A stretch of 36,559 nucleotides of DNA from a virus. Lineage: Duplodnaviria > Heunggongvirae > Uroviricota > Caudoviricetes. The stretch is from IMG/VR virus record IMGVR_UViG_2724679237_000007, positions 1-36,559 of that record, one strand, 5' to 3'. The translations under genes were made by a program, and so were the position numbers. The notes below the pieces were generated by a model that saw nothing but the letters and a program-made list of their open reading frames with translations, was not told the origin of the DNA and ran no database searches. Below are positions 1,171-36,559 of the stretch, piece after piece (position 1 is the stretch's first letter; the number at the start of each line of letters is the position of its first letter).

Positions 1171-1336
1171 CACCTCCAGCGCTAATCCACTTTTCAACTG
1201 CCTGACGGCTGTACCTTGATGGGTGAGTGAGTACCGGCTCCGGAAAGCCGTGTTTCTTACGAAGGTTATACAGTGCGGTTCGTTTTTTCTGAAGTAACTC
1301 AGAAATTTCTCTCTCAGTCATAAAGTCAGTAATCAT
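1154..1336 (-). CDS. AlpA/excisionase-family HTH protein (putative Xis or regulator)
   Basis: 60 aa from the internal ATG (cat at 1334-1336) with an upstream GAGAGG RBS. Sequence MITDFMTEREISELL...LYNLRKKHGFPEPV...VEKWI fits the AlpA/Xis pattern. Start overlaps the helicase stop (ATGA) and the 3' end overlaps int convergently by 17 bp. The rest of the 233 aa track ORF is an alternate frame of the helicase. Confidence 0.6.
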   Translation of the reverse strand: MITDFMTEREISELLQKKRTALYNLRKKHGFPEPVLTHPSRYSRQAVEKWISAGGVNQAV

Positions 1337-2733
1337 AGTATACCTCTCTTTTTCATTGCACCGAGCAGGATGTCCTGCACTGTTCGTTTTGAGTTGCGCC
1401 GTTCCATCACCATGTCGTCCATAGTGTCGGCAGCGATGATGTGGTGAATGAACACCGGGCGGTTGTGTCCGGCCTGGATCTGCCGGGTTGGCCCGATGCG
1501 TTCGATAATTTGTTGGTACTGCTCCAGATCCCACCAGTGCGAGAAAAACACCAGTATGTTGCCGCCGTCCTGCATGTTCAGACCGTGGCCTGCACTGGCA
1601 GGGTGCGCGAACAGCACCGGGATTTTTCCGGTGTTCCAGTCGCGCAGCGTCTGCGGATACTGGCCAAGGTGTCGACCACGCGGGAATGCTTTTAGCAGTC
1701 GTTCGAGGTCGTGCTTCCAGTGGTATGCAACAAGCACCGGCGCGCCAGCAGCTTCGGTCAGTATGCTGTCCAGCGCCTGCAGCTTCGCGTCGTGCAGTTC
1801 TGACCAGTTCCCGGCATCGTCGGTGTACACCGCGCCGCTGGCGATTTGCAGACACTTCGCCGTCTTTGCCGCGGCGTTCGGCGCTTCGATGCCCTCGCCG
1901 TTGAGTTCGAGGAACATTTCTTTTTCCATTTCGCGATACTGCTGGCGCGTCTTCGGTGGCATGTCTACGCGGATCACGTTATGGATTGGCTCCTTGATAT
2001 CGAACCAGTCGGCGGCGTCCAGTGAGATAGTGACGTCGGCCAGCGCCCGCTGTATCTCGTCCTGTGAGTGAGCGAACGGCTCCAGCTTCGTCCAGCTCTG
2101 CCCCGGAAACTGTATCGAGTTGAACCAGCGGGAAGTAAACGCGCCCCAGGTGCGACCCAATCGCTGCCCCTGATCGACAAACCACGCCTGCCCCCACAAA
2201 TCCACCAGGCCGTTTGGCGCTGGCGTGCCGGTGAGATTCACCCAGCGCCGGGCGTACTTATGCGCCACTTTGCCCAGTGCCGCTGCACGCTTGCCACCCC
2301 CGCGCAGCCGGAAGGATTTTAGCCGGGTGCTTTCGTCGGGGATAACGGTACCGAACGGCCAGCGGCCGCCCAGCTCTTCCACCAGCCAGACCAGATTGTC
2401 GTAGTTGATGGTGAACACGCTGGCGTTGCTGTTCGCCAGCGCCGCAGCACGTGCCTTAGCGTTACCGACAATCGGCTGCACCTCGATATTGCGCAGATGC
2501 CCCCACTTTACCGCTTCATCAGGCCATGTGCTGGCAGCCACGCGCAGCGGCGCGAGAACCAGCGCGGGCTGTGTCTCCGCTCCCGCCATGAAGAGGTCTT
2601 CCAGCGTGGTGAGCGTCGCCACGGTTTTACCCATGCCCATGCCCGCCCAGATGTTGCAGCGGTGAATGTCGATTTCGTGGTTGATGATGAGGTCCTGGTA
2701 AGGGCGGGGAATAAAGATTTTAGATGAGGTCAT
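1333..2733 (-). CDS. SNF2/DEAD-like phage helicase
   Basis: 466 aa with Walker A GMGMGKT near the N-terminus and helicase C-terminal region; start overlaps the methyltransferase stop by 14 nt. Confidence 0.8.
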   Translation of the reverse strand: MTSSKIFIPRPYQDLIINHEIDIHRCNIWAGMGMGKTVATLTTLEDLFMAGAETQPALVLAPLRVAASTWPDEAVKWGHLRNIEVQPIVGNAKARAAALANSNASVFTINYDNLVWLVEELGGRWPFGTVIPDESTRLKSFRLRGGGKRAAALGKVAHKYARRWVNLTGTPAPNGLVDLWGQAWFVDQGQRLGRTWGAFTSRWFNSIQFPGQSWTKLEPFAHSQDEIQRALADVTISLDAADWFDIKEPIHNVIRVDMPPKTRQQYREMEKEMFLELNGEGIEAPNAAAKTAKCLQIASGAVYTDDAGNWSELHDAKLQALDSILTEAAGAPVLVAYHWKHDLERLLKAFPRGRHLGQYPQTLRDWNTGKIPVLFAHPASAGHGLNMQDGGNILVFFSHWWDLEQYQQIIERIGPTRQIQAGHNRPVFIHHIIAADTMDDMVMERRNSKRTVQDILLGAMKKRGIL

Positions 2734-3769
2734 ATCCTGCGCATTCCATAAACGAGCGGATGAATGTAGCGGCAGCTGGCGCGACTATCGCGTTGCCGTA
2801 GGCGCGCAGTCGTCCCACTCTGCTGGTAATCCCATGAGCCAGCGGGAATGTGCCGGGTTCAACTGGCCGCCAGCGACCATCCCGGCAGAGGAGCCAGTCA
2901 GCATCATCCCAGCTGCCGCTAATCGTATTGGGCCACAGATTCTCGCTGCGCCGCCGAGAGTCGTTCCCCGTTCGGTATGATTGGCTGCGGCTCCCTCTCC
3001 CCGAACCCGGTTGTTGTCGATCGTCGTCACCGTCGGCCATCCACTCAGGCAGGCATAATCCTGTAAGTTCGGTTGTCGGCCCGCTAAGGTTTCCAGACCG
3101 CGCTTTGTCTCCGGCTGTGGATTGGTGTTGCAGGTTGGCGTGTACCATCCCGCCAGGTGGGCAAAGTCCCTCAGGGAGCTGTGCAAGGGGTTGCCGGATG
3201 GTCGACGATCTCCAGACATTTTCCTCAATGCTATTGAGGCGCTTCCGCCACCACTGTGATCGGTCGCCGCTGGAGTCGGCCACCCAATAAGCTCTGTCTC
3301 GGATATGCGGGGCACCGACGCCCGCAGCCGGAAACGGGACAAGCCCAAAGGCGTAGTCCACTGCTTCCACGTCAGTTTGTACAAGATCGAACCAGGCATT
3401 GACTCCCGCAACCTGTTCGCCAAATACCAGCTCAGGGCGTCGCTCGCTGATGAGGTGGAAGAAGGCTGGCCAAAGGTGCCGCTCGTCAGCAAACCCATTT
3501 CCTTTGCCTGCCGCGCTGAAAGGCTGGCAGGGGCAGGAGCCTGTCCAGACCGGGCGAGCGTCGGGCCATCCTGCCAGACGCAGGGCGTAAGACCAGACGC
3601 CGATCCCGGCGAAGAAATGGCACTGTGTAAAGCCTCGCAAGTCGTCTGGTGCGACATCCTCGATACTCCTCTCGTCAACTTCACCAGGGGCGATATGTCC
3701 CGCGGCAATAAGGTTACGCAGCCATTGCGCTGCGTTCGGGTCTATTTCGTTGTACCAGGCTCCCCGCAC
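2720..3769 (-). CDS. DNA (cytosine-5)-methyltransferase
   Basis: 349 aa with FAGIGV (motif I, FxGxG) and PCQPFSAAG (motif IV, catalytic Cys). No cognate restriction endonuclease is visible nearby. Confidence 0.8.
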
Positions 3770-4821: not shown

Positions 4822-5583
4822 TTAAGAGGAAGCGTTAGCTATTTGAGCTTGTGTAAATTCAAAACCTGAATGCTGTAACCGTTGCACCAGTCGAGGAACA
4901 GTTTCTCGTACATGGTCGTTGAAGTTCAGATATAAAATTCCGTTAGCATCAGAAGGTTGTTCTAAATGTTGTTTCTGCAAAATAGCTACGTTACTGCGCC
5001 CTAAGGACGAAAGAAGCATACCCATCTCGAGCACAACATTCTGTCTTGCACGAGGCTGGATTTCAGCTTCACCGGCGCGCTTTGAGTACCCCATATCGTC
5101 AGGTGTGAGAAGCACAATCCCGAATCGGGTAGCTGTTTGCCCCTGACCGATTTCACGTTCCAGCTCTTCAATAATTGTGAGCCCAGTCCCGCCAGTATTC
5201 TGCAAAATGAAATGGTCTGGCAACCCGAGTTTATGGAGTATTAGCTCAAGTTGTTCCTTTGCCGCATGATCATGGCCGTGAACAATGAAAATCTTTTTTG
5301 GAATCTCAGCAGGTTGTTCAACAGATTGAGGTGCCGCTGCGGGTGGCGTTCCTAAATGGGCCATTATTGCAGATTCAACATTGGGGCGTTCTTGAGGGTT
5401 ACCCTGAAGCTGAATAGTACGGGTAGCGTAAAGGTTAACAATTACACCATTCGCTAAACGATAGCAGTCACAAGCCCCACGCTGTTCATGGTCAAAATTG
5501 GTGAACCCGCACTCCCTTAAAAAGTCAGGAAATGATTCTCTTGGGTGTGGATAGGTGATCGGCATTTCAGTTAGTTCCTGCAT
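4822..5583 (-). CDS. TIR-like (Rossmann, nucleotide-binding) domain protein with an uncharacterised N-terminal domain; candidate defense effector
   Basis: 253 aa. C-terminal half KKIFIVHGHDHAAKEQLELILHKLGL...GIVLLTPDDMGY...ARQNVVLEMGMLL matches the prokaryotic TIR-like / SLOG-type pattern (vFIvHGhd...LTPDD). N-terminal ~80 aa has no family I recognise, followed by a Pro/Ala linker. Clearly lower GC than flanking genes. Confidence 0.6.
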   Translation of the reverse strand: MQELTEMPITYPHPRESFPDFLRECGFTNFDHEQRGACDCYRLANGVIVNLYATRTIQLQGNPQERPNVESAIMAHLGTPPAAAPQSVEQPAEIPKKIFIVHGHDHAAKEQLELILHKLGLPDHFILQNTGGTGLTIIEELEREIGQGQTATRFGIVLLTPDDMGYSKRAGEAEIQPRARQNVVLEMGMLLSSLGRSNVAILQKQHLEQPSDANGILYLNFNDHVRETVPRLVQRLQHSGFEFTQAQIANASS

Positions 5584-5647: not shown

Positions 5648-7711
5648 TCAATCTTTTCTGTAGTGGTACGCCTCGAAGCCGCCAGCGTTCAGCGGGATGT
5701 CGGGCGCCCATTCGGGGTTTGTGGAGAGCAGCGCGGAAAGCGCCGTATCGTTGAAATCGTCGGTGTCCGGCGCTTCGGTGATCACCTCATCGTGTACCGT
5801 CAGCACAATGCTGTAACCGGCATCCTCGATCAGCGGCATGTTCCCGGCCAGAACGTCGCGGGCGGCCGCCTGGGTGACGTTTTCCGCGAGCTTGCCGGAG
5901 TAGGTTTTAAGCCGTTGCCATTTGCGCGAGTAGGAATTAACGCCCCGGTAGGTGATGTCGCCGTCCTCGATCGTCGGTGACGGATAACAGACCGCGCGCC
6001 CGGACGGCAACTGGATGCGCAGCCAGGCACCATCGCGCCGGACTTTCAGATAACCACAACACAGGGTTCTTTTCGGGGTTGCAATGGCGGCGCGAACGGT
6101 GCGCTCAATCTCGTGCCAGAAATCGCAGGTAGCTGGGTGCGCCCGGCGCCACAGGCGCTTTAGCGAGTCACAAGCGATAAATACGCGCTCCGACAGTCCG
6201 TAGGTTACTTTGCGTTTGACCGATTCGTCATACCAGCTTTTCGCCTCGTGGATCACCTCACGGGGGATATTCGGCAGCGCGGCGTTCGCCAGTTCGTTGA
6301 GGTCGAGGCCGTAAACAAGGGCGAAGGTCAGGAATGCCGCGACGCCTCCGCCATATCCTAACCCGAGTTCCATTACTTTGCCGATCTGACGCTGGTATTT
6401 ATCAACATCGTCCGGCGAGATATTGAAGGCACGGGCATAGGCCAGTTTATACAAGTCCGGGCCGGTGCCCTCGTCGTACTCACGGAACGCGTCCAGCTTC
6501 CACTGTTCACCCGCCAGCCACGCCAGCATTCGCCCTTCGATATTTGACAGATCGCTAACCACCAGCTTTTTGCTTTCCGGCGCCATGATGCAGCCGCGTA
6601 ACGCTGAACTGGTCAGTTCCATGATGTTATTGAACAACAGATCGGCACATCCGGCTTTCAGGGCGTCGATACCGAAGTCTATTTGCTCCTGCGGCAGCGT
6701 TGGCCGACTGAGGTTTTGCGGCTGAAACAGCCGGCCCGCCCAGCGCCCTGTTCGTGATGCCCCGCAAAATTGCAGCGTACCGCGCAGGCGCCCGTCGTGG
6801 CTGACGCCTTTTATCAGCGTTTTGTATTTGCTGGTGCTGGTCATACTGGCCTGTAATCGGATCGCCAGCAGTTCTTTGACCGCCGGGGGTAAGTCCGGGT
6901 CGGCAATGCGGCGTTCGAGCGTCGATTTCTGCATGTCCGGCAATATCACGCCGTAGGATTCGACGATGTGTTTTAGCATGGCGTCGCGCTGTGTGGCCGC
7001 CTGGACTTCGCCGCCGGTCATTGCCTGCGTGCGTTTTGCCAGGCGCTTTTGCTCCTGGTCTACCGCTTCGACGGCCGCGTGCGCGAGCTGCACATCCATG
7101 CAGGCGCCACGGTCGTTAATCCGCTGGTCGCGGTGCCAGTGCGCCAGCTCGGCTCCCTGATAGTTCCACTTTGGCAGGCGCTTATGCACTTCGCGCATGG
7201 CCTCGATATCCAGCCCGGCGTATGCAACGAACCGCCGCCACTCTTCCGGGTGCGTTTTGCTGGTGGCCCGGCGCAGTTTGCTGTTTTTCGGTCGAGGCTT
7301 GCAGAACAGCTGGATTAGCGCCGTACCCCCTTTATCCTTCGCTTTGTCCTGCGGAACGCCCAGCACTTCACACAACGCGCCTAATGCGCCGGGGAGTCCG
7401 TGCGCCAGCGCCTGCACCATAGTATCGCGCCAGCGGGTGATATCGGGTGCCAGTTCCGGCATTGCATGGCGCAGCACCGTGCGGTCGAAATGTGAATTGT
7501 GCGCCCATACTTCTACCTCCGGTTTTTTGAGCGCGAGACGCAACTCCAGAGGTATTTTTTGGGTTTCGGTTAAGTCCCACACTTGTACGGGGGCGTCGTC
7601 GAGCGCCCAGGCGAACAGCATAACCTCGGCACCCTCTGAATACGCATGGGTCCCGTTTTTTATCGGCACTTCGGAGAAAGTTTCGAGGTCGAGATAAAGG
7701 CGTTTAGACAT
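5648..7711 (-). CDS. Family A DNA polymerase with 3'-5' exonuclease (T7 gp5-like)
   Basis: YLDLETFS (Exo I), [14 protein letters not shown] (motif A), [16 protein letters not shown] (motif B), VLTVHDEV (motif C). ATG at 7709-7711 has a GAGGTGG RBS; the track ORF starts at an upstream GTG (7726). Confidence 0.85.
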
Positions 7712-8201
7712 GGGGCCACCTCGCACCGGAAATAATCATACCCACCGCACGTCGTGATATTCCGTACCTACGACCAAGTTCAGTTTGTGAGACTGAATCG
7801 CCCAGCGTTTTTATCTCCCGAGCGATGGCCTCTGTAATTTTTGCCATTCCATTCTTTTCACCTCTATTATCGGGAAAAGTCAGGCGACCATTGCGAGCGA
7901 CTCGCTTCATATTTTCCTGACGGTCAACCCATTCAAGATTGCCGACGGTATTGTTTCTCTTGTCGCCATCGAGATGGTCAACTTCTGGTTTATTTTTGGC
8001 CGTCGGAAGAAAAGCAGTTGCGACTAGTCGATGTACAAATATGTTGCGAGAGATGCCGTTATCGCATAGCTTCGCATGCAGATACCCGTCTCTGTGTTTT
8101 GACGGTTTGAGAATGTGGTGGTGGATATTTCTAACTCTTCCCAAATTGCTGACCTCGTAACGGTCTTCAAATCCGGGTGCAGGTTTCCAAATTTCGGGCA
8201 T
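7704..8201 (-). CDS. HNH homing-type endonuclease (NUMOD4/HNH_3-like)
   Basis: [15 protein letters not shown]-terminal motif and [14 protein letters not shown] core. Start chosen at ATG 8199-8201 (GAGGA RBS, 6 nt spacing) rather than the track start at 8246. Confidence 0.8.
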
Positions 8202-8392
8202 AAATAGTCCTCGCGGGTGCTTTGCGAAAAGGGATGCTCTTTGCAAAACACCCGGCGCGTGGCCGGGTGGGTGGGTGTTTACGCTGTGGCTTCTTCGTCA
8301 GAAGGGAGGCCGATCATCTCGTTGAGCGTTTCGCGGCGTATCGCGGGCGGCAGCGGGCGGGCATAGCACCGTGAGGGACGCGCTTTCCGGGA

Positions 8393-8425
8393 ATAAAAAA
8401 GCCCGGCAGTGGAGTCTGACCGGGC
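8393..8425 (-). terminator. Rho-independent terminator (minus strand)
   Basis: Minus strand reads GCCCGGTCAG-actcca-CTGCCGGGC followed by TTTTTTATTC; about 9 bp stem. Confidence 0.6.
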
Positions 8426-8451: not shown

Positions 8452-8547
8452 TCAGGGGGATGCGGTTAAAGCCGCGAGGTATTCCTCGAAACTTAAGGCT
8501 TCTTCGCCTTCATCCAGGCTATCGAAGTACGCTTCGTAATCATCCAT
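8452..8547 (-). CDS. Candidate 31-aa acidic micro-protein
   Basis: MDDYEAYFDSLDEGEEALSFEEYLAALTASP; GAGGAA RBS 5 nt upstream of the ATG; the terminator at 8393..8425 follows. Below the 60 aa track cutoff. Speculative. Confidence 0.3.
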   Translation of the reverse strand: MDDYEAYFDSLDEGEEALSFEEYLAALTASP

Positions 8548-8605
8548 CGTCTTTCCTCATTCAGTTCACTTTGGCGGTGCGATGGCCGGTGCTGATCCCC
8601 GGTAT

Positions 8606-8671
8606 GGCGTTCTGCGGGATTCGAACCCGCGTTTTCCGTCGGATCGTCCTGGGTCGCTAGACGAAGAACGC
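8606..8671 (-). ncRNA. tRNA-Glu-like element lacking a canonical anticodon arm (degenerate tRNA or tRNA-like RNA)
   Basis: Minus strand: GCGTTCT-TCGTCTAGCGACCCAGGAC-GATCCGACGGAAAAC-GCGGGTTCGAATCCCGC-AGAACGC-C. Perfect T-arm (GCGGG/TTCGAAT/CCCGC), 7-bp acceptor pairing, and a D-arm near-identical to E. coli tRNA-Glu (TTCGTCTAGAGGCCCAGGAC), but only ~15 nt where the 17-nt anticodon stem-loop plus variable loop should be. Confidence 0.45.
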
Positions 8672-9070
8672 CCGGCTACATGCATTTAGCCGCGCATCAG
8701 CCTGCGCATTCACCGCACCCCAAAGGGAACTTCGCCACACTTTCGCAGTGGCCGCGCTCATGCCCTTGAGTCGTCTGTCGCTCAGTCGCCGCTAATAACC
8801 GGTGCTCGTCTGGCTTGCGAACTGCTTTACCGGCACACCATCTTCATCGTTAACCCTCACCAGCGTGCGCTGCGGTTCGTACCCGCATCTGGCTACCCTC
8901 GTCGGGTATTCGGGGCAGCATTACAATTGCTGCACTGCCTTTCGGCTGCGGTCTGACCGCTTTACTTGTGCATGGTGGTTTCCTCCTTTGGTTGATTTTT
9001 TACTGACCCGTATTGCCGGCATCCTGCCTCGCCACGGTCCCGACGCATGGTTTTAAGTCGCGCCGTTCGA

Positions 9071-9110
9071 CTTGAATTCTAAATTGATTTTTGAATTCAA
9101 AAATGAATTT
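9071..9110. promoter_or_regulatory. Operator-like palindromic repeats (TTGAATTC / GAATTCAA), putative leftward promoter region
   Basis: cTTGAATTCtaaattgatttTTGAATTCAAaaatGAATTt; same half-site family as the cI-cro intergenic palindrome. Confidence 0.4.
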
Positions 9111-9154
9111 ATAGAAGCGGTAACACCTTGTCAATCCAAAAGTGAATTATTTTT

Positions 9155-9185
9155 AGAAAAAGAAAAGCCACTCAAAGGGTGGCCT
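9155..9185 (-). terminator. Rho-independent terminator downstream of the repressor gene
   Basis: Minus strand GCCAC-cctttga-GTGGC followed by TTTTCTTTTTCT. Confidence 0.55.
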
Positions 9186-9205
9186 TGTGATAAACGTGGC
9201 GGGTG

Positions 9206-9883
9206 CTACTCGGGCATCCAGAGCGACGATTTAGCGATCCCGGCAACGTACTGGATATGTACCACCTGGTCTTTTTGCAGGCGAACAGGTAAGTGATTTT
9301 CGTTGACAGGCATCAAGTGATAAGCCCCGTCGCGTTCGAACAAAAAAACCTTCACCATCACTTCCCCCTGCGCAGTGACCACCAGCACTTCATCTCCGGG
9401 GGTATAGCTATGACCAGGTTCGATGATGACGTACTCACCTTCTTTAATCCGGGGCATCATCGAGTCCCCCACGCATTTTAACGCGTAGGCGTTCTCGTCT
9501 TGCGAAGGCCAGTGTATATACCCGTCCCCGCTTCCTACCGGGTATTGCATTTCGCTCCAGTAACCGCCATGCCCAAGCTGGGTATTTCCCAAAACAGGAA
9601 CTCCTCTAAACCGTAAAGTATCGGGTTTCCCCGGGACGGAATGTTGTTGCTCCCCAGTCTTCGGCATGCTGGTTTCCATCAAATCGGGGACGCTTACCCT
9701 AAAAAAATCAGCTACCTGCTTTATGAGCGGGTACTTCGGTTCTTTGTTTTCCCCTGAAAGCAGCCTGTGCATGGTGGGCTGCGGAATGCGTATCTGCTTA
9801 GCCAGTTCGGTCACGTTTGGTATGCCGCGTTTCGCCATTAAGTAATTGATATTTGAAATAAGTTTTTCAGTAGTAAAGCCCAT
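9206..9883 (-). CDS. cI: CI-like repressor (HTH + S24 LexA-like peptidase domain)
   Basis: 225 aa; N-terminal HTH (NVTELAKQIRIPQPTMHRLL) and C-terminal S24 peptidase motifs (GDSMMP Ser, downstream Lys); divergent from the Cro-like gene. Confidence 0.85.
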   Translation of the reverse strand: MGFTTEKLISNINYLMAKRGIPNVTELAKQIRIPQPTMHRLLSGENKEPKYPLIKQVADFFRVSVPDLMETSMPKTGEQQHSVPGKPDTLRFRGVPVLGNTQLGHGGYWSEMQYPVGSGDGYIHWPSQDENAYALKCVGDSMMPRIKEGEYVIIEPGHSYTPGDEVLVVTAQGEVMVKVFLFERDGAYHLMPVNENHLPVRLQKDQVVHIQYVAGIAKSSLWMPE

Positions 9884-9912
9884 AGCGATACCTGTGGATT
9901 CGGGTTATTCAA

Positions 9913-9988
9913 GACTGAATATTCTATACTGAATATATTACGCTGGTATTGCATTCATTATTGAATTATTATTGAATTCAATAATGAA
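9913..9988. promoter_or_regulatory. Operator region of the cI/cro switch
   Basis: Direct repeat ACTGAATAT x2 (9913-9940) and a long inverted repeat ATTCATTATTGAATT / AATTCAATAATGAAT (9953-9988) in the 130-bp divergent intergenic region. Confidence 0.5.
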
Positions 9989-10013
9989 TTTACAACCTTT
10001 GAGGATATGACAT

Positions 10014-10214
10014 ATGCGAACGCTGACCCCAAAAGAAATCATCGCGTCGCTGAACGACACAGGGCTTACGCAGGTAGACATTAAGAACCGGACCGGTATC
10101 AGCCAGGCTTCAATTAGCCGTATCGCGTCAGGTAAAAATAGGGACCCGCGTTTTTCGGTTGTTCGTGCGCTGGAAGCCTTGTATCAGGAAGTGACCGAAA
10201 CGAAAAAGGCGTAA
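10014..10214 (+). CDS. cro: Cro-like HTH transcriptional regulator
   Basis: 66 aa; first gene of the rightward operon opposite cI; HTH-like TGISQASISRIASGK; GAGGA RBS. Confidence 0.65.
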   Translation: MRTLTPKEIIASLNDTGLTQVDIKNRTGISQASISRIASGKNRDPRFSVVRALEALYQEVTETKKA

Positions 10215-10217
10215 CCC

Positions 10218-12521
10218 ATGGAAATACGCTATTCAACGGGGCAGTACGCCAGAGACGCCAGGCCTAAGCCGGGTATCTGTAAGAGCTTTGGGTCGTTCTA
10301 CTGGACGGTGCGTGGCCTGCGTCGGGCCATTGGCATCGAGCCAGAAGATACGCCGAACCAGATGCGTATCAAAAAGTCCCGTCTGCCCTATATCTGGCAC
10401 TCAATGCGGGATGTTGCAAACGGACGTAATGCGCTCAATGCTGGCGATCGCGATGCGCTGTTCCTCGATATGGACGGCTGCGACGAACCCACATGGCAGG
10501 CGCTGCGCAATGCGCTAACTTGCTTTTCCTGCTTCACCTACTCAACCCCCAGCCATCTGCACCCTGCCGTAAACGGCGAGCAGCGCTGGCGTATCTGCTT
10601 TGAGCTTGATCGCCCTGTTACGCCCGAAGAATACAAACGCCTTGGCCCGTCGCTGGAAAACTGGCTGATAGACTGTATCAGCCTGCTGGACGACTATGCC
10701 GTTAAGTGGGATCAGTCTGTCTATAACCCCGACCACATGGTTTACGGGCCTGACGAAAGCGCAGTGTTCGAGTGTTTCGAGGGGTCACCTGTCACCGTGG
10801 ATATTCTGCTGGCCAGCACAACGGAAATTACCTCACCTGAAAAAGCGCCGTCCGTTGACCACGATGATTTGTCGCGTGCTGTCGATCTGAACGGCATCAG
10901 TCACCAGACCTTCGACGACCTGCGCGAGGTGATGTGGCATCCGGCTGTGCTGGCTGACGCCCGTCCGAAAAGTGAGAAGCATGACGCATGGGCATCGATG
11001 GGGAATCGTCTGGCATGGTTCAAAGGTACCGACTGGGAAGATGCCGCGCGGCAACTATGGATCGACTGGTCAACCGCAGGCGGCGGCAGCGAAGAAGATA
11101 TCGCGGTAGCTGAAACGCGCTGGGATGAGAATAAGCTGAAAGCAGACCGTACCGGTTACCAGGCTATTTTTGCCCATGCGCAGAAATCTGGTGTCGCTAA
11201 CCCGGCGGTTGACCGTCTGCGTGGTTCTGTTGCCAGCGTGGACGATTTCGACGATTTGACAAATACCGACATAGCCGAGCCTGCGCCGTTACCGGCTTTT
11301 CGTAGAGATAATAAGGGAGACATCGAAGCGATCCTTGATAATGTTGTGCTGGCTCTGATGCGTCCGGATTTTACGGGTGTAGCCATACGCTACGACATAT
11401 TCAGGGATGCGCTTATGCTGGCACCGGCGGAAACTGATGGCTGGCGTGCTTTCGGGGATGAGGATTATAGCGAGCTTCGGATACTGCTTTCTCGTCGCAG
11501 TTTTAAAGAAGTTAGTAAAGAGTTGATGCGTGATGCGGTGTTTACGGTAGCAAAACGGCAGCCGTTCGACTCGGCGACAACCTGGCTGAACGGGCTGGAG
11601 TGGGACGGCGTGCCGCGCATCGAATCTTTCTACCATACGCACTTTGGTACCGCTGATACGACGTACACCCGGGCGGTGTCCCTGTACATGTGGACGGCGC
11701 TGGCGGGCAGGGTGCTGGAGTCCGGCGTTAAAGCTGATATGGTGCCGATCCTCGTCGGCGCTCAGGGACTGCGTAAATCAGCTGGGATTGCAGCTCTTTC
11801 GCCAGATCCGGAATTCTTTGCCGATATTTCGTTTGCTGATAAAGATGACGACCTCGCGCGCAAGATGCGAGGCTGTTTAGTCGCGGAGATAAGTGAGTTG
11901 CGTGGCCTGAACACAAAAGATCTTGAGTCAATAAAGGCATGGGTAACGCGAACCCACGATAAATGGGTTCCGAAATTTAAGGAGTTTACGACCATCTTTG
12001 CTCGTCGTGGTATTCCTTTGGGGTCCTCTAACGAAGATGAATTCCTCGCGGATAAGACCGGTAACCGCCGCTGGTTGCCTGTAGACGTCATCAACATGGT
12101 TGATACAGATGCTATTAAGCGCGATTTACCGCTGCTGTGGGCGGAGGCCCGCGAGACGTTTAAGCGCCTCGGCGGCATCCAGTTCCGCGATGCTGAGCGC
12201 CTCGGCGCAACTGTCCACGAGCAGTACACCATTAAGGACGCCTGGCTCGAAACGGTCGAGAAATGGCTCGATACCCCTGACCTGATGACTAACGACATTC
12301 CGCGAAATTGCGAATTTTTACGCGCAAGCGACGTTTTACGGGAGGCGATCGGCCTTGACCCGCGGAATATCGGAAAGCGTGAAGAAATGCGAATTAGCAA
12401 TGTTTTGCAAAATTGCGGTTATAAGCGCGAAACACGACGTGTTGAAGGCAAGTTAATGAAGGTTTGGATAGCAGCGTTACCACCTGTTACCACCTGTAAG
12501 GGCAAGGTGGTAACAAATTAA
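10218..12521 (+). CDS. DNA primase (primase-polymerase-like N-terminus with VirE/P4-type P-loop C-terminal domain)
   Basis: 767 aa; C-terminal ILVGAQGLRKSAG (Walker A) and VirE-like region; lies between cro and the iteron array. Confidence 0.7.
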   Translation: MEIRYSTGQYARDARPKPGICKSFGSFYWTVRGLRRAIGIEPEDTPNQMRIKKSRLPYIWHSMRDVANGRNALNAGDRDALFLDMDGCDEPTWQALRNALTCFSCFTYSTPSHLHPAVNGEQRWRICFELDRPVTPEEYKRLGPSLENWLIDCISLLDDYAVKWDQSVYNPDHMVYGPDESAVFECFEGSPVTVDILLASTTEITSPEKAPSVDHDDLSRAVDLNGISHQTFDDLREVMWHPAVLADARPKSEKHDAWASMGNRLAWFKGTDWEDAARQLWIDWSTAGGGSEEDIAVAETRWDENKLKADRTGYQAIFAHAQKSGVANPAVDRLRGSVASVDDFDDLTNTDIAEPAPLPAFRRDNKGDIEAILDNVVLALMRPDFTGVAIRYDIFRDALMLAPAETDGWRAFGDEDYSELRILLSRRSFKEVSKELMRDAVFTVAKRQPFDSATTWLNGLEWDGVPRIESFYHTHFGTADTTYTRAVSLYMWTALAGRVLESGVKADMVPILVGAQGLRKSAGIAALSPDPEFFADISFADKDDDLARKMRGCLVAEISELRGLNTKDLESIKAWVTRTHDKWVPKFKEFTTIFARRGIPLGSSNEDEFLADKTGNRRWLPVDVINMVDTDAIKRDLPLLWAEARETFKRLGGIQFRDAERLGATVHEQYTIKDAWLETVEKWLDTPDLMTNDIPRNCEFLRASDVLREAIGLDPRNIGKREEMRISNVLQNCGYKRETRRVEGKLMKVWIAALPPVTTCKGKVVTN

Positions 12522-12956: not shown

Positions 12957-13379
12957 ATGCGCAGAGATATGCAACTTGTTCTGGAGCGGTGGGGGCGGTG
13001 GGCTGCGAGCGAGGAATACTGTTCAATGGTTGACTGGCCCTCGATGTCGGTGACACCTCAACGTGTACCGTTCAGCGGAAAGCCCGGCTGCACCGACGAG
13101 GACGGCGCGGCAATTGACACCTGCATCGCGCATATGAGTATGGTTTGTCCGCATGACGACCTGCTGATCCTTGGCTTACGTTTCATAGGCGGTTTATCAA
13201 CGCGTTCAATCGCCGAGGCAATGCAGTGCAGCCACCTTAGTGTAAGAACGTCCCTGAGGGCATCTGAGGCGTTTTTATCGGGGGCTCTGACCCTGCAGGG
13301 GATCAGACTGGATATGGACTACGAAGTTGCATTACCTGAAAACGTTGTGTGCGCACAAAAACATGTGTTATGGTTGTAG
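12957..13379 (+). CDS. Late-gene antiterminator (Q-like)
   Basis: 140 aa starting MRRDMQLVLERWGRWAA, resembling the conserved N-terminus of one Q antiterminator family; sits directly upstream of lysis and virion genes, followed by a terminator. Confidence 0.55.
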   Translation: MRRDMQLVLERWGRWAASEEYCSMVDWPSMSVTPQRVPFSGKPGCTDEDGAAIDTCIAHMSMVCPHDDLLILGLRFIGGLSTRSIAEAMQCSHLSVRTSLRASEAFLSGALTLQGIRLDMDYEVALPENVVCAQKHVLWL

Positions 13380-13406
13380 CGTCTGGAATTGTATTCCGAC
13401 TTCTGA

Positions 13407-13440
13407 AAGGCTCCACTAACCCCGGAGCTTTTTTCTTTTC
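13407..13440 (+). terminator. Rho-independent terminator (candidate tR'-like)
   Basis: aaGGCTCC-actaacccc-GGAGCTTTTTTCTTTT immediately after the Q-like gene. Confidence 0.55.
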
Positions 13441-13773
13441 GCCTTCCTGGGGAAAAGTTAATAAAACAGGGCTTTCGCTGCGAAAAAACGCTATGCAATT
13501 TGCACCCTGTTTTATGCACGATTTATTCACTCGTTTTTGTCCGTTTCGGACCACTTAACCCGCGTAAATACGTCATTCGCTGCAATCCGGCGGCGAGTGC
13601 CGATCGCGTGGTTCTTAATGTACATTATGTTAAATAAGGCCATTTTTTAACAAATTATCACCGTAGTCTACGGTTCGTCCGCAGGTTTGGCCATTGCCGG
13701 GTAGTGCAATATTTCCACTCACATTTTTCACATAACGGCCCGGCGTTCGCGTCTGCTGGCCGGGGATATTTAT

Positions 13774-14148
13774 ATGCCTAATTCACCGCCAACGCTGGCG
13801 TTAATCCTTGAAATGTACCGCCAGCACAAGACCCCGTTCGACCTGTTTCTGCTGGTGCTGGCGGGTGTGTTCGTCCGCATTTTTTACTGGGGCGGTAAAT
13901 TGCGCGAAGCGTGTGGCGATGTGCTCATCGGCACCACCATCATGATTTTCGTTGCAGCGCGGGTGCCAAATATCGTGCTGAATCTGCCGGAAATTGGCGC
14001 AGTGACGGTCAATCACAACGAACTGGCATTCGTCATCGGGATGCTGGGGTACAAAGGCTTTAAAGAAGTGGCGTTCTGGGTGCTGAAAAAACGGTTCGGT
14101 ATCGACGTTCAGGCGCTCAGGCAGAAAAAACAGGAGAGCAATCAATGA
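13774..14148 (+). CDS. Holin (putative)
   Basis: 124 aa with hydrophobic transmembrane segments and a charged C-terminus; immediately precedes and overlaps the endolysin start. Confidence 0.6.
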   Translation: MPNSPPTLALILEMYRQHKTPFDLFLLVLAGVFVRIFYWGGKLREACGDVLIGTTIMIFVAARVPNIVLNLPEIGAVTVNHNELAFVIGMLGYKGFKEVAFWVLKKRFGIDVQALRQKKQESNQ

Positions 14149-35473: not shown

Positions 35474-35524
35474 CAAGCCCCACTCACACAACGAATTAGT
35501 GGGTGGGGCTTGTACTTATTTTTT
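35474..35524. terminator. Bidirectional terminator between convergent tailspike and acyltransferase genes
   Basis: CAAGCCCCACTCAC-acaacgaatta-GTGGGTGGGGCTTG followed by tacttaTTTTTT; overlaps the acyltransferase stop. Confidence 0.6.
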
Positions 35525-36559
35525 AACTTTCGATAATAACCTTGCTAAAAGTAATGGGATTGCGATTGCAGAAAATGGATATAATAATTGGGTGTAAAAA
35601 GTATGGTAATGAACTAGAGTTTTAGTATTTCTCATGTCCCATAATCCAAATAACGAAAAAATCATGTCGAGGAATACAAATATACATAAATGATATGACA
35701 TTATTCCTCGCGAATACTTTCCTGCATCCTTTAAAAAAGTTGATAAATAAGTTCCATTAAATACAGAGGAAACAAAAAAAATTAGTAGTATGCATAGTAG
35801 AGCCATAATGGTTGTAACAACAAATCCTGATGGATATGCACTCCATGACATTATCATTGGTTTTGCTAGGCCAGATAAATATAATGATAAAACCAAGATA
35901 AATAAAATTAAAGCGATAATTTTATTTTTAAAATGTAAGATAAATGAATTGATGCAGCACCCGATCAGCATAAACATGGTGGCATATAGAACTTGAGACG
36001 TTAAGTTATATATCTGTTCACCTGTGATTTTATATATATCGGCCATGATGGTTGTAGATACGTATCCAAAACATATTGATATTGCAATTATTGTAATTTT
36101 TTGTGTTTTAGTATCTTTTATTTTTAATGACAATGAAATAATTATAGTTGATATAATGTTTGACAATAGGTATGCAAAAAGAAACCATCCAACTAAAAAC
36201 AATTCATTGTTATGGAAGTTGTTTTTGAATATTGATATTATTGTTTCAATGGGGTGTTCTGAAAATGGTAACCCAAACCCTATTCCATATATCTTAGATA
36301 TGCCAACGGAAACCATGCCGATTATTAAATACGTAACAATAAAATACATGATTATTTTTGAAAGTGTTTTTTTTATGGTTTTGAATGGGGTGATTCCATC
36401 AATAAAAAAACCACCCACAAAAAAGAATAAAGGCATATGATAAAAGTAAGGTTTGGTAATACCAACTAATATCCCCCAACTATGGCCGATAACCACAGCG
36501 ATAATCCCAATTCCTTTTACAATATACAAAGTGTCACTTTGCTCTTTAGTCAGTGTCAC
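35516..36559 (-). CDS. Acyltransferase family 3 integral membrane protein (O-antigen/polysaccharide acetyltransferase-like); N-terminus at or just beyond the window edge
   Basis: 347 aa, about 10 predicted TM segments; N-terminal VKGIGIIAVVIGHS matches the acyltransferase-3 signature; very low GC (roughly 28%); convergent with the tailspike. Confidence 0.75.
   Translation of the reverse strand: MTLTKEQSDTLYIVKGIGIIAVVIGHSWGILVGITKPYFYHMPLFFFVGGFFIDGITPFKTIKKTLSKIIMYFIVTYLIIGMVSVGISKIYGIGFGLPFSEHPIETIISIFKNNFHNNELFLVGWFLFAYLLSNIISTIIISLSLKIKDTKTQKITIIAISICFGYVSTTIMADIYKITGEQIYNLTSQVLYATMFMLIGCCINSFILHFKNKIIALILFILVLSLYLSGLAKPMIMSWSAYPSGFVVTTIMALLCILLIFFVSSVFNGTYLSTFLKDAGKYSRGIMSYHLCIFVFLDMIFSLFGLWDMRNTKTLVHYHTFYTQLLYPFSAIAIPLLLARLLSKVKK

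What the first reader, a model, noticed from the sequence alone, without database searches (positions are those of the whole stretch)
9071..9988. Repressor flanked on both sides by related AT-rich palindromes (TTGAATTCAA family)
The cI-cro intergenic region contains a 36-bp inverted repeat plus ACTGAATAT direct repeats. A related set (TTGAATTC / GAATTCAA / AATGAATT) lies about 100 bp beyond the cI stop, consistent with two operator clusters that could loop and control a leftward promoter distinct from the maintenance promoter.
Basis: partly seen in the sequence, partly recalled or inferred. Interest (0 to 1): 0.4.

Follow-up and report, generated by a model that had tools for sequence, protein, structure and literature searches.

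The report
Two operator clusters flank phage repressor
The AT-rich palindromes on both sides of this prophage's repressor gene are seven copies of one 14-bp repressor-binding motif, arranged as in phage lambda or 434, so the finding is real but ordinary.

Summary
Confirmed, but ordinary. The window is an APSE-like prophage of Escherichia albertii. Its cI gene (9206-9883, minus strand) is flanked by seven copies of a 14-bp dyad, ATTC(A/T)-N4-TGAAT. Four lie in the cI-cro spacer: 9907, 9921, 9953 and 9976. Three lie beyond the cI terminator: 9076, 9095 and 9134.

The left three overlap the -35, the -10/+1 and the early transcribed region of a near-consensus leftward promoter, TTGACA-17-TAAATT (9134..9106). 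Exact matches occur nowhere else in 36.6 kb.

Klebsiella, Salmonella and Citrobacter-type prophages with a similar cI DNA-binding domain keep all seven sites at the same relative positions. Of the 56 outer motif columns, 54 are invariant, against 43% of non-site columns. Relatives of other immunity types carry different dyads at both places.

This is the classic OL/PL-cI-PRM/OR/PR-cro layout, with 434-like operator geometry. It is a new member of a known kind. Repressor binding and OL-OR looping remain untested.

One side observation is more unusual. PL reads straight into a roughly 250-nt structured RNA (8728-8990, minus strand) that starts with a ribosome-binding site and a mini-ORF. It is absent from Rfam, has strong covariation support, and occurs in at least 119 viral contigs. 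Here it sits where sister prophages carry a boxA leader.

The parts
9206..9883 (-). cI-type repressor gene, 225 aa, with an N-terminal HTH domain and a C-terminal S24 autopeptidase domain (GDSM serine motif)
   Evidence: Pfam HTH_26 (2.7e-09) and Peptidase_S24 (5.7e-17). It is 100% identical to an E. albertii protein and 47-48% identical to APSE P1/cI.
10014..10214 (+). cro-like gene, 66 aa, with a GAGGA ribosome-binding site at 10001-10005
   Evidence: Pfam HTH_3. Weak similarity to the 434 repressor and 434 Cro HTH (E 0.005-0.14). Conserved in relatives.
9976..9989 (.). Operator OR1, ATTCAATAATGAAT (nearest cro)
   Evidence: All outer positions are invariant in 5 lineages.
9953..9966 (.). 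Operator OR2, ATTCATTATTGAAT, 23 bp centre-to-centre from OR1
9921..9934 (.). Operator OR3, ATTCTATACTGAAT. Its centre contains the inferred PRM -10 (TAGAAT on the minus strand).
   Evidence: The central TATA is conserved in this site only.
9907..9920 (.). Operator OR4, ATTCAAGACTGAAT (nearest cI). It abuts OR3, 14 bp centre-to-centre.
9134..9147 (.). Operator OL1, ATCCAAAAGTGAAT. It has one mismatch here and is perfect in relatives. It touches or overlaps the -35 of PL.
9095..9108 (.). Operator OL2, ATTCAAAAATGAAT. It overlaps the -10 and the start region of PL.
9076..9089 (.). Operator OL3, ATTCTAAATTGATT, an imperfect site. The same half-site is imperfect in all relatives. It lies just downstream of the PL start.
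9106..9134 (-). PL-type leftward early promoter: -35 TTGACA (9134..9129), 17-bp spacer, -10 TAAATT (9111..9106)
   Evidence: 10 of 12 consensus positions. It scores 12.7 bits, against at most 7.8 for any other candidate. Both hexamers are invariant in relatives. An equivalent TTGACx / TATAAA-like promoter follows cI in YeP5, vB_EcoM-689R2 and APSE-8. Promoter activity is inferred.
9154..9186 (-). Intrinsic terminator of cI: hairpin GGCCAC-CCTTTGA-GTGGC followed by a T-run
   Evidence: Relatives have a hairpin plus T-run of different sequence at the same place.
9921..9949 (-). Inferred maintenance promoter PRM: -35 ATACCA (9949..9944), 17-bp spacer, -10 TAGAAT (9926..9921)
   Evidence: Second-best minus-strand candidate. 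Both hexamers are conserved in relatives. Inferred only.
9943..9978 (+). Inferred PR for cro. Either TTGCAT (9949-9954)-18-TGAATT (9973-9978) or CTGGTA (9943-9948)-18-TATTAT (9967-9972). OR2 and OR1 cover the core promoter in both cases.
   Evidence: The assignment is ambiguous.
8728..8990 (-). First product of PL: a ribosome-binding site (AAGGAGG, 8988..8982), a mini-ORF ATG CAC AAG TAA (8973..8962), and then a roughly 240-nt multi-helix structured RNA
   Evidence: 72-89% matches in unannotated DNA of lambdoid phages. At least 119 viral contigs. 20 of 41 predicted pairs are compensatory. 98.4% of cells are paired, against 28-40% in slid controls. No Rfam family.
8395..8425 (-). Intrinsic terminator downstream of the leader RNA and the 31-aa ORF. 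A second terminator lies at about 8243-8269 (minus strand), before the HNH and DNA polymerase genes.
   Evidence: Read. The first terminator is conserved in vB_EcoM-689R2.

Best explanation
This is the immunity region of a temperate, lambdoid-style (APSE-like) prophage. The S24/HTH repressor CI, and probably Cro, binds as a dimer to 14-bp dyad operators, ATTCA-N4-TGAAT.

Four operators lie between cI and cro. OR1 and OR2 cover the rightward lytic promoter PR. OR2 sits just upstream of the weak -35 of the maintenance promoter PRM, where bound CI could activate it. OR3 and OR4 cover the PRM -10 and start site, which would give negative autoregulation.

Three more operators lie just beyond the cI terminator. 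They cover the -35, the -10/+1 and the early transcribed region of a strong leftward early promoter, the PL equivalent.

In a lysogen CI shuts both PR and PL. RecA-stimulated self-cleavage of CI releases both. PL then transcribes a structured leader RNA, a small ORF, an HNH endonuclease, DNA polymerase A and the other left-arm genes.

Shown here: the sites, their statistical excess, their positions relative to promoter and terminator consensus elements, and their purifying conservation across lineages. Inferred: CI and Cro binding, the promoter start points, activation and autorepression of PRM, and any cooperative OL-OR looping over about 840 bp.
For: - **Seven in-register copies of the dyad.**
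- **Statistical excess.** All five exact matches in the window lie in these two spots, against 0.65 expected. No local shuffle out of 2000 reached the observed count.
- **Promoter and terminator.** PL is the best promoter match, and a terminator lies between cI and PL.
- **Protein domains.** cI carries HTH plus S24, and Cro carries HTH_3.
- **Conservation of the sites.** Prophages with a similar cI N-terminal domain keep the same 4 + 3 sites, with spacings 23/32/14 and 39/19, and almost no other hits in 5.7-kb loci.
- **Footprint in the alignments.** The outer motif columns are invariant in 54 of 56 cases, the central columns in 12 of 28, and non-site columns in 75 of 175.
- **Other immunity types carry other dyads.** YeP5 has the recognition helix QQSTMHRLL instead of PQPTMHRLL. 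It has ATGC-N6-GCAT-type dyads in both regions and no ATTC-N6-GAAT sites there.
- **Shared layout.** All relatives examined have a terminator followed by a TTGACx promoter right after cI.
Against: - No binding, transcription-start or reporter data exist for this phage or any APSE-like phage in the literature searched.
- PR and PRM are weak consensus matches, and the PR assignment is ambiguous.
- OL1 and OL3 are imperfect sites in this window.
- OR has four sites, two of them abutting at 14 bp, which differs from the three-site lambda model.
- The APSE-8 GenBank record labels the cro-cI spacer as a putative replication origin. That label comes from a skew-based program.
- No close solved structure exists for this cI.
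Confidence: 0.85

Rival explanations
1. The repeats are bound mainly by Cro or another phage regulator rather than by CI. The left cluster would then serve lytic-phase control of PL, not lysogenic repression.
For: Cro is also an HTH protein encoded next to the sites. In lambdoid phages Cro and CI share operators (established knowledge), so sequence alone cannot separate the two.
Against: Motif identity tracks the cI N-terminal domain across lineages. A prophage has to silence a near-consensus PL, and CI is the only repressor with the right architecture. This rival differs only in which protein dominates, and both proteins probably bind.
Confidence: 0.07
2. The AT-rich repeats are origin-of-replication iterons or a DNA-unwinding element, as the APSE-8 record suggests for the cro-cI spacer.
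For: The APSE-8 annotation reads 'putative origin of replication region'. The region is AT-rich, at 26-35% GC. A primase/helicase gene lies just downstream of cro.
Against: That annotation came from originX, a skew-based predictor, with no experiment behind it. The units are dyad-symmetric rather than direct iterons. They sit exactly on promoter hexamers. A second set lies 840 bp away on another promoter. The motif changes with the repressor type.
Confidence: 0.03
3. The similarity between the two regions is a relic of an ancestral duplication, or a by-product of AT-rich promoter DNA, and the left copies have no function.
For: A 36-nt block at 9076-9111 is 81% identical to 9957-9992 (D3), so the two clusters probably share ancestry.
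Against: Local dinucleotide shuffles never reach the observed counts. In four diverged lineages the outer motif bases of the left sites are conserved in 22 of 24 columns, while the surrounding DNA is only about 38% invariant.
Confidence: 0.02
4. A host transcription factor, rather than a phage protein, recognises the sites. Candidates would be ArgR-like TGAAT/ATTCA boxes, Fur or LexA.
For: TGAAT and ATTCA are also the half-sites of the E. coli ARG box (own knowledge). One ARG-box-like string, TGAATTATTATTGA, occurs at 9962-9975.
Against: The conserved register is ATTCA-N4-TGAAT, which is the reverse arrangement of an ARG box. The ARG-like string is not conserved in relatives. No CTG-N10-CAG LexA box is present. 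The site centres vary freely, which does not fit a Fur box.
Confidence: 0.03

Closest known systems
Phage 434 immunity region (OL-cI-OR-cro)
   Same: The repressor gene is flanked directly by two operator clusters. The operators are 14 bp long, with four conserved outer bases on each side and a variable centre. cro is divergent. The left cluster sits on PL. Cro shows weak HTH similarity to the 434 repressor and 434 Cro.
   Different: The operator sequence is ATTC..GAAT instead of ACAA..TTGT. There are four sites in OR rather than three. The cI protein has no detectable sequence match to the solved 434 repressor chains. The phage backbone is APSE-like, with DNA polymerase A and a VapE primase, and is not lambda-like.
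Phage lambda OL/OR switch with long-range CI looping
   Same: An S24-type self-cleaving repressor. Divergent PRM and PR. A separate PL under its own operator set. A Q antiterminator for late genes.
   Different: Lambda operators are 17 bp and three per cluster, and OL lies 2.4 kb from OR, beyond rexAB. Here the distance is about 840 bp and no gene sits between cI and OL. No N gene or nut site follows PL in this window. Looping is not shown here.
APSE / Sendosyvirus-like phages (APSE-1 P1/P2, Yersinia phages YeP4-6, Escherichia phage vB_EcoM-689R2)
   Same: The cI-cro-VapE primase order is the same. The cI protein is 47-63% identical. All have a terminator plus a leftward promoter right after cI.
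   Different: They belong to different immunity types, with CGCAT/ATGC-type dyads. They carry a boxA (GCTCTTTAACAA) after PL, which this window lacks. No operator analysis of this group was found in the APSE papers read.
Coliphage 186 CI with flanking FL/FR sites
   Same: The repressor gene region is bracketed by distal repressor sites that cooperate with the central operators (own knowledge).
   Different: In 186 the flanking sites are auxiliary and do not lie on a strong early promoter. Its lytic and lysogenic promoters face each other, and its CI is not an S24 protein. Here the left sites sit squarely on promoter hexamers.

Membership tests
Lambdoid immunity region (OL/PL - cI - PRM/OR/PR - cro) | A LexA-like (S24) repressor with an N-terminal HTH, transcribed divergently from a small Cro-type HTH gene | tested here: met
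   Pfam HTH_26 plus Peptidase_S24 for 9206-9883 (minus strand), and HTH_3 for 10014-10214 (plus strand).
Lambdoid immunity region (OL/PL - cI - PRM/OR/PR - cro) | Several dyad-symmetric operators in the cI-cro spacer that overlap the divergent promoters | tested here: met
   Four exact ATTCN6GAAT sites at 9907-9989, conserved in relatives. Their overlap with PR and PRM is inferred from weak consensus matches.
Lambdoid immunity region (OL/PL - cI - PRM/OR/PR - cro) | A second set of the same operators on a leftward early promoter on the far side of cI | tested here: met
   Three sites at 9076-9147 over TTGACA-17-TAAATT, conserved in relatives.
Lambdoid immunity region (OL/PL - cI - PRM/OR/PR - cro) | The repressor physically binds the operators and represses PL and PR | not testable with these tools
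   This needs EMSA or footprinting and reporter assays. Only covariation of the motif with the repressor type is available.
Lambdoid immunity region (OL/PL - cI - PRM/OR/PR - cro) | N/nut-type (boxA) antitermination signal downstream of PL | tested here: not met
   There is no GCTCTTTAACAA-like boxA near PL, even allowing 2 mismatches. Sister prophages have one directly after OL3, and the window shows an 11-nt gap there. This feature is not universal among lambdoid phages; HK022 uses put RNA instead (own knowledge; PMC9378689 appeared in the search but was not opened).
434-type operators | 14-bp operator with conserved outer tetranucleotides and a variable central hexamer | tested here: met
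   Outer columns are invariant in 54 of 56 cases, the four innermost columns in 12 of 28.
434-type operators | ACAA-N6-TTGT sequence, and a repressor homologous to 434 cI | tested here: not met
   The motif is ATTC-N6-GAAT. cI has no PDB match to the 434 repressor. Only Cro shows weak similarity, E 0.005-0.01.
APSE-like (Sendosyvirus-related) temperate phages | cI-cro-VapE primase module plus a family A DNA polymerase in the left arm, with proteins similar to APSE | tested here: met
   tblastn of cI against APSE-1, -2, -7 and -8 gives 47-48% identity over 100% of the query. VapE and DNA_pol_A domains are present. Synteny matches the APSE-8, YeP5 and 689R2 records.
Replication-origin iterons | Direct repeats bound by an initiator, next to an AT-rich unwinding element, and not tied to promoter hexamers | tested here: not met
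   The units are palindromic. They sit on the -35 and -10 hexamers. They are duplicated at a second promoter 840 bp away.

The most novel reading that the evidence does not exclude
The left operator cluster gates a promoter whose first product is neither a protein nor a nut site. It is a widespread, unannotated structured RNA of about 250 nt, absent from Rfam, that begins with a ribosome-binding site and a 1-7-codon mini-ORF.

Among the APSE-like prophages examined, only the two E. albertii elements carry it, and they lack the boxA that their relatives have at that position. In other lambdoid phages it sits after nutL and before N, or after Q.

It could be a cis-acting RNA that lets PL transcription read through the two terminators lying ahead of the HNH and DNA polymerase genes, as HK022 put RNA does. 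It could instead be an early-expressed RNA effector, for example a stable-RNA or anti-defence moron. Either way, the immunity switch of this phage would control a new RNA class.
Probability: 0.3. Interest if true: 0.65.

Novelty: new member of a known kind. Interest (0 to 1): 0.2.

Why it matters
The analysis gives a usable map of the lysis-lysogeny switch for a little-studied group, the APSE-like prophages of Enterobacterales, whose best-known members are the aphid-symbiont toxin phages. No operator analysis turned up in the APSE papers read.

The map covers:
- the operator consensus ATTCA-N4-TGAAT;
- the seven sites;
- the PL promoter and the cI terminator;
- an immunity group that spans E. 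albertii, Klebsiella, Salmonella and Citrobacter-type prophages.

It adds no new principle. The practical value is for annotation, for predicting superinfection immunity, and for designing induction or reporter experiments.

The side observation may matter more. PL drives a conserved structured RNA with no annotation, found in at least 119 viral contigs and in 137 of 5426 complete E. coli genomes.

Tried and rejected
- **Megablast of 8900-10250 against the phage collection:** no match. Close DNA relatives are not in GenBank phages.
- **Genome-contig scan with the cI protein:** no confirmed relative.
- **The E. albertii contigs that were read and encode the identical cI:** 99.9-100% identical over the region. 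A same-species footprint was therefore impossible. I used cI proteins with similar N-terminal domains from other genera instead.
- **ARAGORN:** no tRNA or tmRNA in the window, despite a canonical T-arm at 8614-8631.
- **Rfam, at gathering thresholds and at E<=5:** nothing relevant.
- **PDB sequence search for cI:** only a weak LexA C-terminal match.
- **Host-factor boxes (LexA, ARG, Fur):** considered by eye and rejected, because neither the register nor the conservation fits.
- **Replication-origin reading from the APSE-8 record:** rejected; see the rival explanations.
- **The best-scoring minus-strand promoter in OR, TTGTAA-16-AATAAT (9995..9968), as PRM:** rejected, because its hexamers are not conserved in relatives. 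ATACCA-17-TAGAAT is conserved.
- **PR:** could not be pinned to one hexamer pair.
- **Homology between this window's PL leader and the leaders of YeP5, 689R2 and APSE-8:** none beyond PL and one terminator.
- **Fold of the tRNA-like piece:** not energetically significant, z = -0.65.
- **Literature searches for operators in APSE-like phages and for the leader RNA:** no description found. Pas sRNAs are a different kind of RNA: Hfq-bound base-pairing sRNAs.
Full report
**What the window is.** ORF 9206-9883 (minus strand) encodes a 225-aa protein with a Cro/C1-type HTH domain and a Peptidase_S24 domain. ORF 10014-10214 (plus strand) encodes a 66-aa HTH_3 protein. A VapE-type primase/helicase follows at 10218-12521. 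To the left lie an HNH/NUMOD4 endonuclease and a family A DNA polymerase. The repressor is 100% identical to an Escherichia albertii protein, and locus L005, from an E. albertii assembly, is identical to the window. By tblastn the repressor is 62-63% identical to those of Yersinia phages YeP4-6 and Escherichia phage vB_EcoM-689R2. It is 47-48% identical to P1/cI of the aphid-symbiont APSE phages, which share the cI-cro-primase order. The window also has a Q antiterminator, an endolysin-type peptidase and a small terminase subunit. It is therefore an APSE-like, lambdoid-style temperate prophage.

**Checking the observation.** There is a 37-bp inverted repeat at 9953-9989, with 15-nt perfect arms and a 7-nt spacer (I5). 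ACTGAATAT occurs at 9914-9922 and 9928-9936. The TTGAATTC, GAATTCAA and AATGAATT strings lie at 9072-9110, which is 96-135 bp past the cI stop. The repeat finder shows that the underlying unit is a 14-bp dyad, ATTC-N6-GAAT, more exactly ATTC(A/T)-N4-TGAAT. It has seven in-register copies, at 9076, 9095, 9134, 9907, 9921, 9953 and 9976 (D1).

**Statistics.** All five exact matches in the 36.6-kb window lie in these two spots, against 0.65 expected. I also shuffled only the local AT-rich DNA, keeping dinucleotide content. Allowing one mismatch, the counts were 4 observed against 0.16 expected on the left and 4 against 0.19 on the right. No shuffle out of 2000 reached the observed count.

**Anatomy of the left cluster.** Reading leftward from the cI stop on the minus strand, the first feature is an intrinsic terminator, GGCCAC-CCTTTGA-GTGGC plus a T-run, at 9186..9154. 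Next comes OL1 (9147..9134), whose end touches the -35 hexamer TTGACA (9134..9129). After a 17-bp spacer comes the -10 hexamer TAAATT (9111..9106), which overlaps OL2 (9108..9095). OL3 (9089..9076) follows. The promoter matches 10 of 12 consensus positions. In a weight-matrix scan it scores 12.7 bits, against at most 7.8 for any other candidate in either regulatory region. This is the geometry of a PL/OL unit. The promoter is distinct from PRM and insulated from cI transcription by the terminator.

**Anatomy of the right cluster.** OR1 (9976-9989) and OR2 (9953-9966) are 23 bp apart centre-to-centre and cover the only plausible rightward core-promoter positions. PR is either TTGCAT-18-TGAATT or CTGGTA-18-TATTAT, and I cannot decide between them. 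A conserved block, CAATACCAG, separates OR2 from OR3. On the minus strand it gives -35 ATACCA, with -10 TAGAAT lying inside OR3. OR3 is the only operator whose central bases (TATA) are conserved across lineages, which fits a double role as operator and -10. OR4 abuts OR3 and covers the predicted PRM start. These promoter assignments are inferred.

**Comparative test: same motif type.** A same-species footprint was impossible, because the E. albertii contigs read are essentially identical. A protein alignment showed that the N-terminal DNA-binding domain of this cI, including the recognition helix PQPTMHRLLSG, is nearly the same in cI proteins from Klebsiella pneumoniae (P0002), Salmonella enterica (P0011) and Citrobacter freundii-type prophages (P0007). 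The C-terminal domains differ, and overall identity is 62-66%. Their loci contain exactly the same pattern. Four ATTCN6GAAT sites lie in the cro-cI spacer, with start-to-start spacings of 23, 32 and 14. Three lie after the cI terminator, with spacings of 39 and 19. In each 5.7-kb locus there is at most one unrelated one-mismatch hit elsewhere.

**The footprint in the alignments.** The eight outer positions of the seven sites are invariant in 54 of 56 columns. The four innermost positions are invariant in 12 of 28, and non-site columns in 75 of 175. TTGACA and TAAATT are invariant. The cI terminator keeps its hairpin-plus-T-run form with a different sequence. OL3 is imperfect in the same half-site in every lineage, so it looks like a deliberately weak site.

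**Comparative test: other immunity types.** YeP5, 689R2 and APSE-8 have the same layout of terminator followed by a TTGACx / TATAAA-like promoter directly after cI. They carry different dyads in both regions: ATGC-N6-GCAT / CGCAT-type, with no ATTC-N6-GAAT at the operator positions. Their recognition helices also differ, for example QQSTMHRLLTG in YeP5. The motif therefore follows the repressor type, as expected for operators.

**Mechanism.** The best explanation is the classic one. CI dimers on OR1/OR2 and on OL1-3 silence PR and PL in the lysogen. CI at OR2 may activate PRM, and OR3/OR4 may limit it. RecA-stimulated self-cleavage of the S24 domain (GDSM motif present) releases both early promoters. 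Cro probably uses the same sites. Cooperative OL-OR looping over about 840 bp is plausible by analogy with lambda, but it is untested. The distance from OL2 to OR1 is 881 bp here and 875-876 bp in the relatives, so no strict helical phasing is visible.

**Rivals.** An origin of replication, a non-functional duplication and a host factor are each contradicted by the dyad symmetry, by the exact register on promoter hexamers, by the conservation pattern, or by the covariation with repressor type. The 'putative origin' label on the APSE-8 record comes from a skew-based program.

**Comparison with known systems.** The layout is that of the 434 or P22 immunity region, and in principle that of lambda. 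The 14-bp operator, with conserved outer tetranucleotides and a free centre, has 434 geometry. The sequence differs, and cI has no detectable match to the solved 434 repressor. Cro matches 434-family HTH proteins only weakly. Differences from the textbook cases are four sites in OR, no gene between cI and OL, and no boxA/nut after PL. The APSE papers I read do not describe operators for this phage group. I therefore file this as a new member of a known kind.

**What PL transcribes (outside the finding).** The 800 bp to the left of PL hold only short ORFs and are GC-rich. Sister prophages have a boxA, GCTCTTTAACAA, directly after OL3. The window has an 11-nt gap exactly there.

Instead, PL reads into a conserved element at 8728-8990 (minus strand). 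It starts with a strong ribosome-binding site and the mini-ORF ATG CAC AAG TAA. The element has 72-89% nucleotide matches in unannotated stretches of unrelated lambdoid phages:
- between nutL and an N-like gene in mEp213, a Stx2c phage and Hafnia phage yong1;
- just after the Q gene in mEp237 and Klebsiella phage RothC;
- partially, between qut and tQ in HK620.

An alignment of 41 copies less than 88% identical to each other gives a multi-helix consensus in which 20 of 41 pairs show compensatory double changes. In that structure 98.4% of cells are paired, against 28-40% when partners are slid. The covariation score is 0.393, against at most 0.074 in the slid controls, and no shuffle out of 500 reached it.

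Of 104 distinct copies, 86 start with a mini-ORF of 1-7 codons with no conserved peptide, and 84 have a ribosome-binding-site-like sequence. No Rfam 15 family covers the element. It is unannotated in the 137 of 5426 complete E. coli genomes that carry it.

In 40 non-redundant copies the largest nearby upstream ORF is a CI-type repressor in at least 14 and a Q protein in 4. Among the 35 copies with a downstream ORF, that ORF is an N-like protein in 6 and an HNH endonuclease in about 10. In this window too, an HNH endonuclease follows. The other APSE-like prophages examined lack the element.

Downstream in the window lie a tRNA-like piece with a canonical T-arm (8605-8680), a 31-aa acidic ORF, and two intrinsic terminators ahead of the HNH and DNA polymerase genes. 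Its function is unknown. Its position suggests a cis-acting leader, possibly anti-terminating like HK022 put, or an early-expressed RNA moron. I could not test this.

**Verdict.** The feature is an ordinary lambdoid OL/OR arrangement in an under-studied phage group, so interest is low. The most unusual thing nearby is the structured RNA that the left promoter drives.

Noticed in passing
window 8728-8990 (minus strand): A structured RNA of about 250 nt lies directly downstream of PL. It begins with the ribosome-binding site AAGGAGG and the mini-ORF ATG CAC AAG TAA. It is found in at least 119 IMG/VR contigs and in 137 of 5426 complete E. coli genomes, always unannotated. 20 of 41 predicted pairs are compensatory. 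No Rfam 15 family covers it. In other phages it sits after nutL and before N, or after Q.
   Followed up: yes
window 8605-8680 (minus strand): A tRNA-like piece with an 8-bp acceptor-like stem and a canonical GGTTCGAATCC T-arm. It gives an E = 1e-4 local hit to the tmRNA 3' end but has no anticodon arm. ARAGORN finds no gene, and the fold energy is not significant. In other copies of the leader RNA this slot holds a true tRNA (L141, RothC) or what looks by eye like a 16S rRNA fragment (L041, L063, L070).
   Followed up: partly
window 9060-9076, compared with L007/L010/L013/L014 at about 3305-3320: Sister prophages carry an rrn/nut-type boxA, GCTCTTTAACAA, immediately after OL3, followed by a conserved leader. 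The window has an 11-nt gap exactly at boxA, and the downstream DNA has been replaced.
   Followed up: partly
window 7704-8201 (minus strand), and loci: An HNH/NUMOD4 homing-type endonuclease sits between the leader RNA and DNA polymerase A. HNH endonuclease genes are also the first downstream ORF in about 10 of 35 other copies of the leader RNA. They may be using its invariant 35-nt core as a homing target.
   Followed up: partly
window 8452-8547 (minus strand): A 31-aa, very acidic ORF (MDDYEAYFDSLDEGEEALSFEEYLAALTASP) with a GAGGAAAG ribosome-binding site. It lies between the tRNA-like piece and the terminator at 8395-8425, and it was called as a gene in the E. albertii assembly (L005).
   Followed up: no
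window 4822-5583 (minus strand): The early left operon encodes a protein with a CAP12/Pycsar-effector-type TIR domain (Pfam PF10137, E 2.6e-31). This may be a prophage-borne defence or counter-defence gene.
   Followed up: no
window 1333-3769 (minus strand): A C-5 cytosine DNA methylase (2720-3769) and an SNF2/DEAD-type helicase (1333-2733) lie in the left arm.
   Followed up: no
window 12957-13774: The Q antiterminator gene (12957-13379) is followed by a gap of about 400 nt with no ORF of 90 aa or more before the next listed ORF. This is presumably the late promoter, qut site and leader. It does not contain a copy of the PL leader RNA core pattern.
   Followed up: no
window 35516-36559 (minus strand): An Acyl_transf_3 family gene runs off the right end of the window. 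It is a typical O-antigen-modifying moron of temperate enterobacterial phages.
   Followed up: no
L003 (APSE-8) 2352-2452: The GenBank record labels the cro-cI spacer as a 'putative origin of replication region'. The label comes from originX. By the logic used here, that stretch is more likely the OR operator and promoter region.
   Followed up: partly
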